From Escherichia coli (lineage in GTDB: Bacteria; Pseudomonadota; Gammaproteobacteria; Enterobacterales; Enterobacteriaceae): a stretch of 64,000 nucleotides of DNA. Positions 5,749 to 5,931 of the stretch are shown one piece after another. The notes beneath the pieces were generated by a model, which ran no database searches, was not told where the DNA came from, and worked only from the letters and a program-made list of their open reading frames with translations. The stretch lies in assembly GCF_003018115.1 (NCBI RefSeq), contig NZ_CP027457.1. One strand, given 5' to 3'. How positions within the stretch are numbered: position 1 is the first letter of the stretch; each line of letters begins with the position of its first letter. A program made the position numbers and the translations under genes.

Positions 5749-5838
5749 AACGGCTCCTCGTTTACGTTGTTGGTTAGAAGCCCCGTTACTGCTCCTACAG
5801 TGCGGGGTTTCGTCGTTTCAACACCTTGCCTAAATAAG

Positions 5839-5890
5839 GTGTTGAACACCAATTTAAATCGAGGTGTTAAACACGTCAAGTGTTGAACAC
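5839..5890. promoter_or_regulatory. Three copies of an 11-bp palindromic operator GTGTT(G/A)AACAC in a divergent promoter region
   Basis: Perfect palindromes at 5839-5849, 5864-5874 and 5880-5890, plus a half-site near 5815-5825. Confidence 0.6.
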
Positions 5891-5931
5891 TTATTTTTTT
5901 TCCTGCATACTGCATTTGTTTTTTATGAGGG

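What the first reader, a model, noticed from the sequence alone, without database searches (positions are those of the whole stretch)
5815..5895. Tripartite palindromic operator array in the divergent promoter region
Three perfect 11-bp palindromes GTGTT(G/A)AACAC spaced 25 and 16 bp apart, plus a half-site, lie between the divergently transcribed small-ORF operon and RHH module 1. This is a lambda OR-like arrangement that suggests cooperative binding by a dimeric regulator controlling a bistable switch.
Basis: seen in the sequence. Interest (0 to 1): 0.6.

Follow-up and report, generated by a model that had tools for sequence, protein, structure and literature searches.

The report
Repressor binding sites in a phage satellite
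The three palindromes are real and are most likely the binding sites of the small ribbon-helix-helix protein encoded next to them, a so far undescribed repressor-operator cassette that sits in front of the replication genes of a widespread family of E. coli phage satellites.

Summary
GTGTT(G/A)AACAC occurs exactly three times in 64 kb, at 5839, 5864 and 5880, against 0.07 expected.

The window carries an EcCICFT073-type phage-inducible chromosomal island (PICI). The sites lie between an Icd-like/RepA operon read leftward and a 59-aa YlcI/YnfO-family gene read rightward. A single-chain dimer model of that protein folds as a ribbon-helix-helix (RHH) dimer.

In about 40 related loci from many Enterobacterales the layout is kept: O1, leftward -10, O2, TTGAC, T-rich tract, TATACT, O3, gene. 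The inner bases of all sites in a locus change together, and they change with residues 11-15 of the protein's beta-strand. At least 12 specificity classes result.

The sites do not track AlpA, integrase or the replication genes. A separate iteron cluster fits the origin better.

The best reading is an RHH repressor that blocks the leftward promoter and represses its own. This resembles P22 Mnt/Arc more than lambda OR. No second repressor or bistability is evident, and the half-site is not conserved. Binding itself is untested.

I found no published description. The 2018 PICI paper calls these elements unidirectional and a repressor 'unclear'.

The parts
5839..5849 (.). O1: operator GTGTTGAACAC (13-bp palindrome 5838-5850). 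It lies 2 bp downstream of the leftward -10, so it covers the predicted leftward transcription start.
   Evidence: Exact match. A site sits at the homologous position (-102 to -98 from the RHH ATG) in nearly all related loci, with class-specific inner bases.
5864..5874 (.). O2: operator GTGTTAAACAC. It fills the spacer of the leftward promoter and abuts its -35.
   Evidence: Exact match. It always lies immediately upstream of the conserved GTCAA anchor, at -77 from the ATG.
5880..5890 (.). O3': operator GTGTTGAACAC (13-bp palindrome 5879-5891). It overlaps the -35 (TTGAAC) of the rightward promoter. This position is specific to the lineage.
   Evidence: Exact match. Present at -61 in the E. 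coli and Edwardsiella class A loci and in Kosakonia L018, which also keeps the canonical site after the -10.
5874..5879 (-). Leftward promoter PL, -35 TTGACG.
   Evidence: Consensus scan. TCAA is invariant in 19 aligned loci from many genera. TTGAC[GA] or TTGA[AG]N is present in all 34 loci scored.
5851..5856 (-). Leftward promoter PL, -10 TAAATT, with a 17-bp spacer.
   Evidence: A TAnnnT hexamer lies 16-18 bp from the -35 in nearly all loci. The promoter is predicted, not mapped.
5883..5888 (+). Rightward promoter PR, -35 TTGAAC, inside O3'.
   Evidence: Read from the sequence. Scored with 17-bp spacing.
5906..5911 (+). Rightward promoter PR, -10 CATACT. Most relatives read TATACT here.
   Evidence: The A at position 2 and the T at position 6 are invariant in the alignment, followed by an invariant TG. 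Scored.
5941..6120 (+). RHH1: a 59-aa YlcI/YnfO-family ribbon-helix-helix protein and the proposed repressor. Its Shine-Dalgarno sequence GAGGGG is at 5927-5932.
5551..5748 (-). Icd-like gene, the first gene of the leftward operon that ends in the RepA helicase (2957-4366).
   Evidence: NF033153 at 64.8 bits. RefSeq annotation of the near-identical locus.
5815..5825 (.). It is probably not an operator.
   Evidence: Other class A loci read TTTCTGCACC here. It overlaps the U-rich tail of the upstream hairpin and the left arm of an inverted repeat.
5817..5846 (.). Inverted repeat TTCAACACCTT / AAGGTGTTGAA. Relatives have CCTTG-N6-8-CAAGG. Its right arm runs into O1, and it would form a 5'-terminal hairpin on the leftward mRNA.
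   Evidence: 11-nt arms, 100% complementary. Present across operator classes. It forms a 10-bp stem in the fold of the predicted leader. Its function was not tested.
5781..5809 (+). Conserved hairpin with a U-rich tail that reaches about 5821. It is terminator-like on the plus strand and marks the left border of the exchangeable cassette.
   Evidence: RNAalifold gives -20.95 kcal/mol on the plus strand, with 12 of 14 pairs showing compensatory changes, against -4.74 kcal/mol on the minus strand.
5730..5735 (+). Candidate -10 (TATGAT) of a small antisense RNA of about 75 nt (roughly 5742-5820) that covers the Icd-like Shine-Dalgarno sequence and start codon.
   Evidence: A TAnnnT hexamer lies 36-39 nt from the GGTTAGA anchor in all genera. 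A two-hairpin consensus carries the anti-SD in a loop. Folding z-score is -4.17. This is a prediction only.

Best explanation
The three palindromes are the operators of RHH1, the 59-aa YlcI/YnfO-family ribbon-helix-helix protein encoded 50 bp to their right.

**Proposed binding.** One RHH dimer sits on each 11-bp site. Its two-stranded beta-ribbon (residues 10-18) lies in the major groove. Residues 12 and 14, with invariant R16, read the inner bases.

**Proposed effect on the two promoters.** The promoters are back to back.
- Leftward: PL is TTGACG, 17 bp, TAAATT. O2 fills its spacer and O1 covers its start site. Bound protein should therefore shut off the operon that encodes the Icd-like division inhibitor, several small proteins, DUF4222 and the RepA helicase.
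- Rightward: PR is TTGAAC, 17 bp, CATACT. O3' covers its -35, so the protein should also limit its own synthesis.

**Role in the element.** The cassette (operators plus the DNA-reading head of the protein) is exchanged between EcCICFT073-type PICI satellites like an immunity region. At least 12 specificity classes exist.

**What is shown and what is inferred.**
- Shown: the sites exist, their positions relative to the conserved hexamers are conserved, sites and protein strand change together, and the fold is predicted as RHH.
- Inferred: binding, repression of both promoters, one dimer per site, and the transcription starts.
- Unknown: how repression is lifted. Candidates are a helper-phage factor, or AlpA-driven transcription entering from the right.
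For: **1. The sites are non-random.** There are 3 exact sites against 0.07 expected.

**2. The architecture is conserved.** It recurs in 12 E. coli loci, 29 loci from other Enterobacterales and the prototype EcCICFT073. Sites lie near -102, -77 and -32 (or -61) from the RHH ATG. TCAA, the A and T of the -10, and the outer TG/CA of the sites are invariant. The inner bases vary.

**3. The sites in a locus change in concert.** O2 matches the O1 region of its own locus with a mean of 0.88 mismatches and the right-hand region with 1.44. Across classes the means are 3.8 and 3.9. A match with at most 1 mismatch occurs in 82% and 65% of within-locus comparisons, against 0.3% and 0.5% across classes.

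**4. Operator cores pair with beta-strand residues 11-15.**
| Residues 11-15 | Operator core |
|---|---|
| QT[VLI]AA | GTGTTGAACAC |
| QSVTA | GTGTAAGACAC |
| K/RKLEA | GTGTCAGCCAC |
| KR[IF]D[AV] | GTGTCGGACAC |
| QSLKS, QALKA | GTGTGGCCCAC |
| QKLQ[AT] | GTGGACTCCAC |
| QKMSA | CTGGCACCCA |

 The rest of the protein is conserved.

**5. The reverse search agrees.** The operator pair GTGTTRAACAC-N3-30-GTGTTRAACAC in IMG/VR returned 66 loci. 53 of them are this module, and every RHH found beside it has QT[VIL]AA.

**6. The sites do not track other genes.**
- L003 and L012 share the same AlpA (WP_001206971.1) and the same downstream ORF but differ in RHH class and operators.
- L002 and L008 share integrase, DUF4222 and a small ORF but differ in class.
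- A natural recombinant with a class B N-terminus and a class A C-terminus has class B operators.

**7. The fold is RHH.**
- The fused-dimer AlphaFold model gives strand-helix-helix twice, with pLDDT about 90.
- hhalign places T12, A14 and R16 on Arc Q9, N11 and R13. By my own knowledge these are Arc's base-contacting residues.
Against: - No binding or expression data exist. The promoters and transcription starts are predictions. The consensus scan found 1 promoter-like site where shuffles give 1.2.
- Operators and gene are about 100 bp apart, so simple linkage contributes to their association. The stronger argument is the concerted change of three separate sites.
- The residue-to-base code is not perfectly consistent. 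K12/S14 goes with two different cores (QKMSA and QKTSV).
- Pfam finds no RHH domain. The hhalign match to Arc has only 5% probability.
- The monomer AlphaFold model shows no strand. The strand appears only in an artificial fused construct.
- Published work on EcCICFT073 reports AlpA as a required activator and no repressor (PMC6092414). The RHH may therefore not be the main control of the leftward operon.
Confidence: 0.75

Rival explanations
1. Lambda OR-type bistable switch. Two antagonistic regulators, RHH1 and a leftward-encoded Cro-like protein such as the 65-aa product, compete for the three sites with opposite affinity order.
For: Three sites lie between divergent promoters. PHROG families hit by the 65-aa protein carry the label 'transcriptional repressor' (phrog_1743 and phrog_6196).
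Against: The 65-aa protein is an Icd-like cell-division inhibitor homologue (NF033153). None of the small leftward ORFs hits a DNA-binding family. The Icd-like and other leftward genes do not track the operator class. RHH1 has no cleavable or oligomerising C-terminal domain like lambda CI.
Confidence: 0.06
2. The sites are bound by another factor, such as AlpA, a helper-phage protein or a host protein, and RHH1 is merely linked to them.
For: AlpA is the known activator of EcCICFT073 genes (PMC6092414). Linkage alone could produce some association between sites and RHH class.
Against: Identical AlpA goes with different operator classes (L003 and L012). A host factor cannot explain 12 or more site classes within one species. 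No similar region occurs in 50,697 phage records. Variation in RHH1 is concentrated in the predicted DNA-reading strand.
Confidence: 0.07
3. RHH1 binds the sites only to regulate itself, or it activates PL from the site centred near -41. The leftward operon would then be controlled mainly by AlpA-dependent transcription or antitermination from the right, and by the candidate antisense RNA.
For: O3' is centred about 41 bp upstream of the predicted PL start, a typical activator position. The literature shows that AlpA is required (PMC6092414). Pseudomonas AlpA is an antiterminator (PMC7969949). A site right after the PR -10 is the most conserved feature of the family.
Against: O1 over the PL start and O2 in the PL spacer are conserved across the family. 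That placement fits occlusion, not activation. O3' at -41 exists only in one lineage.
Confidence: 0.1
4. The palindromes are iterons of the satellite's replication origin, bound by the RepA or primase protein.
For: They are repeats next to an A+T-rich tract (5891-5901). Phage P4 ori repeats (TGTTCACC, own knowledge) look vaguely similar.
Against: A separate iteron cluster, CTCACTTTT in at least 5 copies in both orientations, lies at 2746-2962, directly downstream of repA, where PICI origins are reported (PMC6092414). The same operator class occurs with RepA-type, D5/DUF5906-type and primase-type replication genes.
Confidence: 0.02

Closest known systems
Phage P22 immI region (Mnt and Arc ribbon-helix-helix repressors, divergent Pant/Pmnt, sar antisense RNA)
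   Same: A small RHH repressor is transcribed divergently from the operon it controls. The promoters are close together or overlapping, with operators inside them. The protein represses itself. A candidate short antisense RNA covers the ribosome-binding site of the first gene of the controlled operon. The P22 details come from my own knowledge.
   Different: There is no detectable sequence relationship beyond the fold (hhalign probability 5%). Here there are three separate 11-bp sites rather than one 17-21-bp operator bound by a tetramer. One RHH acts at this promoter pair, not two. The controlled genes are Icd-like plus replication genes, not an antirepressor.
Lambda OR (OR1-OR3 with CI and Cro)
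   Same: Three similar palindromic sites lie between divergent promoters. The region is exchanged as an immunity cassette, which gives heteroimmune classes.
   Different: The protein has an RHH fold, not helix-turn-helix. The sites are 11 bp, 25 and 16 bp apart, not 17 bp with 6-7-bp spacers. No second regulator, no RecA-cleavable domain and no evidence of bistability were found.
Stl/Rpr master repressors of Gram-positive PICIs (SaPIs)
   Same: The position is the same: a regulator gene divergent from the excision/replication operon of a phage satellite. The presumed role is also the same, keeping the island silent until a helper acts (PMC6092414).
   Different: Stl proteins are larger helix-turn-helix proteins with domains that bind helper proteins. 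For Gram-negative PICIs the literature states that a global repressor is unclear and that transcription is unidirectional (PMC6092414).
Plasmid RHH copy-control and global repressors (CopG of pMV158, omega of pSM19035)
   Same: A small autoregulated RHH dimer binds short repeated or pseudo-palindromic sites that overlap the promoter of replication genes (PMC2724298 for CopG).
   Different: CopG is co-transcribed with repB and binds one 13-bp element as a tetramer. Omega binds arrays of 7-bp heptads. Here the sites are dispersed 11-bp palindromes at two divergent promoters.
Phage P1 immI (c4 RNA, icd, ant) and P4 CI RNA immunity
   Same: The first gene of the controlled operon is an Icd homologue. 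RNA-level control of its translation is plausible.
   Different: No C4 or isrK family match was found in the element. The candidate RNA is cis-antisense, not a processed sense-strand RNA. A protein repressor-operator cassette is present.

Membership tests
Ribbon-helix-helix (Arc/MetJ/CopG) DNA-binding proteins | Strand-helix-helix topology that forms an intertwined dimer with a two-stranded antiparallel ribbon | tested here: met
Ribbon-helix-helix (Arc/MetJ/CopG) DNA-binding proteins | Sequence match to a curated RHH family | tested here: inconclusive
   Pfam gives no significant hit. No solved relative is found by sequence. hhalign to Arc has 5% probability, although the register is sensible. 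One UniRef name in the family reads 'CopG-like ribbon-helix-helix'. The paralogous RHH2 hits the PHROG 'Arc-like repressor' family at 4.9e-7.
Ribbon-helix-helix (Arc/MetJ/CopG) DNA-binding proteins | Sequence-specific DNA binding through the ribbon | not testable with these tools
   There is only indirect support. Residues 11-15 change together with the inner operator bases.
YlcI/YnfO family (NCBIfam NF041551) | Score above the curated cut-off | tested here: met
   59.7 bits against a cut-off of 30. RefSeq annotates the homologues the same way.
Lambda OR-type bistable switch | Three operators between divergent promoters | tested here: met
   The promoters are predicted.
Lambda OR-type bistable switch | Two antagonistic repressors encoded on either side that bind the same operators | tested here: not met
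   The leftward genes are Icd-like, DUF4222, RepA and small ORFs with no hit to a DNA-binding family. They do not track the operator class.
Lambda OR-type bistable switch | Cooperative binding of adjacent dimers and positive autoregulation | not testable with these tools
   Spacings of 25 and 16 bp are not integral helical turns. No activating position relative to PR is seen.
Gram-negative PICI (EcCICFT073 type) | Integrase and AlpA followed by a replication module, with the same att region and a shared regulatory region | tested here: met
   The integrase is at 7884-9125, AlpA at 7181-7387 and RepA at 2957-4366, with a tRNA at 9347-9420. The closest E. coli locus lies between phoQ and roxA, as does EcCICFT073. 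EcCICFT073 has the same YlcI/YnfO and Icd-like divergent pair with its own operator triplet. The left end of the element is outside the window or differs from the closest locus, so the packaging module was not checked.
P1 C4 / P4 CI RNA immunity | Match to Rfam C4 or isrK near the Icd-like gene | tested here: not met
   No such match up to E = 1 in 1-12000, or up to E = 10 in 5690-5950.
Replication-origin iterons | Repeats adjacent to the initiator gene that track the initiator type | tested here: not met
   Another repeat cluster lies next to repA. The palindromes occur with three different initiator types.

The most novel reading that the evidence does not exclude
The YlcI/YnfO-type RHH and its operator triplet are the missing master repressor, or immunity determinant, of Gram-negative PICIs, including the model island EcCICFT073. 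On this reading the cassette exists in a dozen or more heteroimmune classes that recombine between islands, and it works together with an undescribed cis-antisense RNA that blocks translation of the toxic Icd-like protein. Satellite induction would then require a helper- or AlpA-dependent way to defeat this RHH. That would revise the published picture of these islands as unidirectionally transcribed and controlled only by the activator AlpA.
Probability: 0.4. Interest if true: 0.65.

Novelty: new member of a known kind. Interest (0 to 1): 0.5.

Why it matters
PICI satellites are present in roughly a quarter of complete E. coli genomes. 1,322 of 5,426 genomes carry this leader region. They move virulence and defence genes. 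For the Gram-negative islands the published work names only an activator, AlpA, and calls a repressor 'unclear'. The small divergent genes were not in the original annotation of EcCICFT073.

A cognate repressor-operator cassette with many specificity classes gives three things:
- A direct, cheap experiment: delete or overexpress a 59-aa protein, or mutate 11-bp sites.
- An explanation for how several related islands can coexist in one genome.
- A natural set of orthogonal small repressor/operator pairs. The recognition code (strand residues 12 and 14 against the inner operator bases) can be read from sequence.

Tried and rejected
- **Rfam.** Scans of 1-12000 and 5690-5950 gave only a tRNA and sub-threshold noise, with no C4, isrK or sar-like family.
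- **Pfam.** The scan of RHH1 found nothing.
- **Solved structures.** The sequence search found nothing.
- **Monomer AlphaFold model.** It gave short helices instead of the strand. I replaced it with a fused-dimer model.
- **Phage collection.** No similar DNA.
- **Literature.** Searches for YlcI/YnfO, PICI plus RHH/CopG, cf-PICI repressor, and EcCICFT073 promoter found no description of this module.
- **Origin iterons.** Rejected, because a better candidate origin lies next to repA.
- **AlpA sites.** Rejected, because the same AlpA occurs with different operators.
- **Extra sites.** The half-site at 5815 and the 2-mismatch site at 5932 are not conserved, so I do not count them as operators.
- **Palindromes as RNA hairpins.** Rejected, because a 5-bp stem with a 1-nt loop cannot form.
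- **Unrelated hits.** Thirteen of the 66 IMG/VR hits are unrelated elements that happen to carry similar palindrome pairs.

Full report
**1. The observation**

GTGTTNAACAC occurs exactly three times in the 64-kb window, at 5839, 5864 and 5880. Shuffles give a mean of 0.07, and none of 100 reaches three. Spacing is 25 and 16 bp.
- The outer two sites extend to 13-bp palindromes.
- With two mismatches allowed, no further site inside the element stands out.
- The half-site TTTCAACACC (5815-5825) exists, but the other loci of the same operator class read TTTCTGCACC there.
- The half-site is also the left arm of an inverted repeat whose right arm runs into the first palindrome.

**2. The setting**

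The window is E. coli DNA. The 701 bases around the sites are 100% identical to strain 2013C-3181, and related sequence occurs in 1,404 of 5,426 complete genomes.

The element has these parts:

| Feature | Coordinates | Strand |
|---|---|---|
| tRNA | 9347-9420 | - |
| Integrase | 7884-9125 | - |
| AlpA-type gene | 7181-7387 | - |
| YlcI/YnfO-family protein ('RHH1') | 5941-6120 | + |
| ORF | 6178-6405 | + |
| Arc-like 'RHH2' | 6625-6798 | + |
| ORF | 6856-7059 | + |
| Icd-like gene | 5551-5748 | - |
| Several small ORFs | between 4668 and 5558 | - |
| DUF4222 | 4363-4662 | - |
| RepA helicase | 2957-4366 | - |

In the closest genome the island lies between phoQ and roxA. That is where the model Gram-negative PICI EcCICFT073 lies in strain CFT073.

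EcCICFT073 carries the same divergent pair, YlcI/YnfO (C_RS30120) and Icd-like (C_RS30125). These recent locus tags suggest the genes were added in a later re-annotation, though I did not check the original annotation. That would fit the 2018 description of these islands as 'transcribed unidirectionally' with a global repressor 'unclear' (PMC6092414).

**3. Comparative anatomy**

I collected twelve E. coli loci chosen across the identity range. I added 29 loci from other Enterobacterales, found with a protein profile, and EcCICFT073. The genera include Edwardsiella, Pectobacterium, Kosakonia, Yokenella, Limnobaculum, Proteus, Xenorhabdus and Klebsiella.

Almost all share one layout, read rightward:
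- a covarying hairpin;
- a short inverted repeat;
- site O1;
- about 14 bp that hold a TAnnnT hexamer on the minus strand;
- site O2;
- GTCAA, which reads TTGAC on the minus strand;
- a T-rich tract;
- TATACT;
- site O3;
- a Shine-Dalgarno sequence and the ATG.

A de novo repeat search placed the sites at about -102, -77 and -32 from the ATG in class after class. O2 always abuts the GTCAA anchor at -66.

In a 19-sequence alignment the invariant columns are the outer TG and CA of the sites, TCAA, and the A and T of the -10 followed by TG. The inner bases of the sites differ.

The hexamers give two back-to-back promoters.
- PL in the window is TTGACG (5879 to 5874), 17 bp, TAAATT (5856 to 5851). 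The consensus scan also found it.
- PR is TTGAAC (5883-5888), 17 bp, CATACT (5906-5911).
- Equivalent hexamers occur at the same spacing in 34 loci.

O2 therefore lies in the PL spacer and O1 over the PL start. In most relatives O3 lies over the PR start. The window's lineage has lost that O3 and carries a site over the PR -35 instead. Kosakonia has both.

**4. Who binds**

The sites within a locus are alike, and the sites of different classes are not.
- O2 finds a partner in its own O1 region with a mean of 0.88 mismatches, and to its right with 1.44. Across classes the means are 3.8 and 3.9.
- A match with at most one mismatch occurs in 82% and 65% of within-locus comparisons, against 0.3% and 0.5% across classes.

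The protein is highly conserved except at residues 11-15, which are flanked by invariant N7, K9, S10 and R16. Each residue pattern goes with one operator core:

| Residues 11-15 | Operator core |
|---|---|
| QT[VLI]AA | GTGTTGAACAC |
| QSVTA | GTGTAAGACAC |
| QSLTA | a related CTTAC core |
| [KR]KLEA | GTGTCAGCCAC |
| KR[IF]D[AV] | GTGTCGGACAC |
| QSLKS, QALKA | GTGTGG[CT]CCAC |
| QKLQ[AT] | GTGGACTCCAC |
| QKIQA | GTGGAGTACAC or CTGGATTCCAG |
| QKMSA | CTGGCACCCA |
| QQLNA | GTGAATACC |

Three further checks support RHH1 as the binder.
- **Reverse search.** A search of IMG/VR for two class A sites 3-30 bp apart returned 66 loci. 53 are this module. Every RHH found beside them has QT[VIL]AA.
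- **Other genes do not track the sites.** L003 and L012 share AlpA and the ORF downstream of the RHH gene but have different RHH classes and operators. L002 and L008 share integrase, DUF4222 and a small ORF but differ in class.
- **A natural recombinant.** One protein has a class B N-terminal half and a class A C-terminal half. It carries class B operators.

Linkage contributes to these associations. The concerted change of three separate sites, with variation concentrated in one short protein segment, is what points to recognition.

**5. The protein fold**

Pfam and a sequence search of solved structures find nothing. A monomer AlphaFold model shows two helices and an ill-defined N-terminus.

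RHH strands form only in the dimer. I therefore modelled two copies joined by a 25-residue Gly/Ser linker, using an alignment of 20 fused homologues.
- Both copies give a strand at 10-18 and helices at 19-28 and 35-59, with pLDDT near 90.
- hhalign against Arc has low probability (5%). It aligns T12, A14 and R16 with Arc Q9, N11 and R13. I verified the Arc sequence against the PDB. By my own knowledge these are the Arc residues that contact bases.

Positions 12 and 14 are the most variable in the family, and R16 is invariant.

**6. Mechanism proposed**

One RHH1 dimer binds each 11-bp site.
- Occupancy of O1 and O2 occludes PL. This keeps the Icd-like and replication operon silent.
- Occupancy of O3' occludes the PR -35, or the PR start in relatives. 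This limits RHH1 synthesis.

All of this is inferred from position.

The arrangement is closer to P22 immI (Mnt/Arc) or to plasmid RHH copy-control repressors than to lambda OR. I found no second regulator, no RecA-sensitive domain and no positive feedback. Spacings of 25 and 16 bp do not put neighbouring dimers on one face of the helix.

How repression is lifted is unknown. AlpA is required for expression of EcCICFT073 genes (PMC6092414), and Pseudomonas AlpA is an antiterminator (PMC7969949). One possibility is AlpA-modified polymerase reading leftward through the terminator at about 7128-7155 and across the cassette. I could not test this.

**7. Rivals**

- **Origin iterons.** These are unlikely. 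CTCACTTTT repeats in both orientations cluster at 2746-2962, just downstream of repA. The palindromes also occur with three different initiator types.
- **AlpA, host or helper binding.** This is unlikely for the reasons given in section 4, and the phage collection has no similar DNA.
- **Autoregulator only, or activator of PL.** This remains possible at low probability.

**8. Neighbouring RNA features (outside the finding)**

The hairpin at 5781-5809 is strongly supported on the plus strand. RNAalifold gives -20.95 kcal/mol, 12 of 14 pairs have compensatory changes, and there are 29 G-U cells against 3 A-C. On the minus strand the energy is only -4.74 kcal/mol.

Upstream of it, a second covarying stem-loop presents CUCC/CCUC in its loop. 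That sequence is the complement of the Icd-like Shine-Dalgarno sequence. A TAnnnT hexamer lies 36-39 nt before the GGTTAGA anchor in all genera, although the Icd-like N-termini differ there.

Together these predict a cis-antisense RNA of about 75 nt (roughly 5742-5820; folding z-score -4.17). No Rfam family matches it.

A second copy of this whole unit sits at 6470-6560, in front of the RHH2 cassette. That cassette has its own palindromes, GGTAATTACC at 6585 and 6615. In O157:H7 the RHH2 cassette alone occupies the position next to the Icd-like operon. The cassettes are therefore interchangeable, and the window carries two in tandem.

**9. Novelty and verdict**

RHH repressors with promoter-embedded operators are a well-known kind, so this is a new member of that kind.

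It is worth noting because the YlcI/YnfO family has no described function. I also found no paper that describes the module in PICIs. It speaks to the stated open question of what keeps Gram-negative PICIs silent.

Interest is moderate, at 0.5.

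Noticed in passing
window 5730-5822 (+): Candidate cis-antisense small RNA of about 75 nt opposite the Icd-like ribosome-binding site. It has a conserved TAnnnT hexamer (TATGAT 5730-5735), a covarying stem-loop with the anti-Shine-Dalgarno sequence in its loop, and a covarying terminator hairpin (5781-5809). The structure is far stronger on the plus strand than on the minus strand. No Rfam family matches it.
   Followed up: partly
window 6564-6800: Second regulatory cassette. Two exact GGTAATTACC palindromes (6585-6594 and 6615-6624, 30 bp apart) lie in front of an Arc-like RHH gene (6625-6798). In E. coli O157:H7 (L013) this cassette alone sits next to the Icd-like operon, so the window carries two interchangeable cassettes in tandem.
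   Followed up: partly
window 6470-6560: A duplicate of the Icd-like leader: TATGCT at 6475-6480, CAT start at 6494-6496, GGTTAGA anchor at 6518, and a hairpin with a good T-run. The minus-strand translation that follows (MAIKEHSLLFIHTQT...) looks like a remnant Icd-like N-terminus. This suggests the tandem cassettes arose by recombination between two islands.
   Followed up: no
window 2746-2962: Cluster of CTCACTTTT repeats in both orientations, directly downstream of the RepA helicase gene. It is the likely replication origin of the island.
   Followed up: no
window 5736-7226 (-): A 496-aa open frame runs antisense through all four plus-strand genes and the operator region. RefSeq annotates pieces of the equivalent frame in some genomes as partial 'Icd-like' pseudogenes. 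It is probably not a gene, but the absence of stops over 1.5 kb is unexplained.
   Followed up: no
L044 9243-10053 (E. coli CFT073, EcCICFT073): The model Gram-negative PICI has the same divergent YlcI/YnfO and Icd-like pair. Its own triplet is GTGTGGCCCAC twice plus CTGTCCCCCAC. These small genes carry recent locus tags, and the 2018 paper describes the island as unidirectionally transcribed.
   Followed up: yes
L010, L011, L012 (E. coli): Some family members are 101 aa long. They have an insertion of about 42 residues after helix 2 (..AEGSGENLLISSLNALAQVEKLGIKAAEEIGQLVT..), possibly an oligomerisation or ligand-binding module.
   Followed up: no
window 6130-6156 and 7128-7155 (+): A terminator-like hairpin lies right after RHH1 and is also present in EcCICFT073. 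Another hairpin with a T-run lies between the plus-strand cassette and the convergent AlpA gene. The latter was the weak Rfam 'Atu_C8' match.
   Followed up: no
L053, L057, L103, L105-L107 (IMG/VR contigs): Unrelated viral contigs carry pairs of GGTGTT[TA]AACACC palindromes 22-24 bp apart. In several (L057, L103, L105-L107) these lie near an ORF starting MPNKRHPT..., so a similar site appears to be used by a different system.
   Followed up: no
L027/L036 and L029/L038 (Xenorhabdus innexi and X. mauleonii): In each of two genomes, two islands carry different RHH/operator classes (KKLEA and QKIQA). This fits heteroimmune coexistence, but it is only two cases.
   Followed up: no
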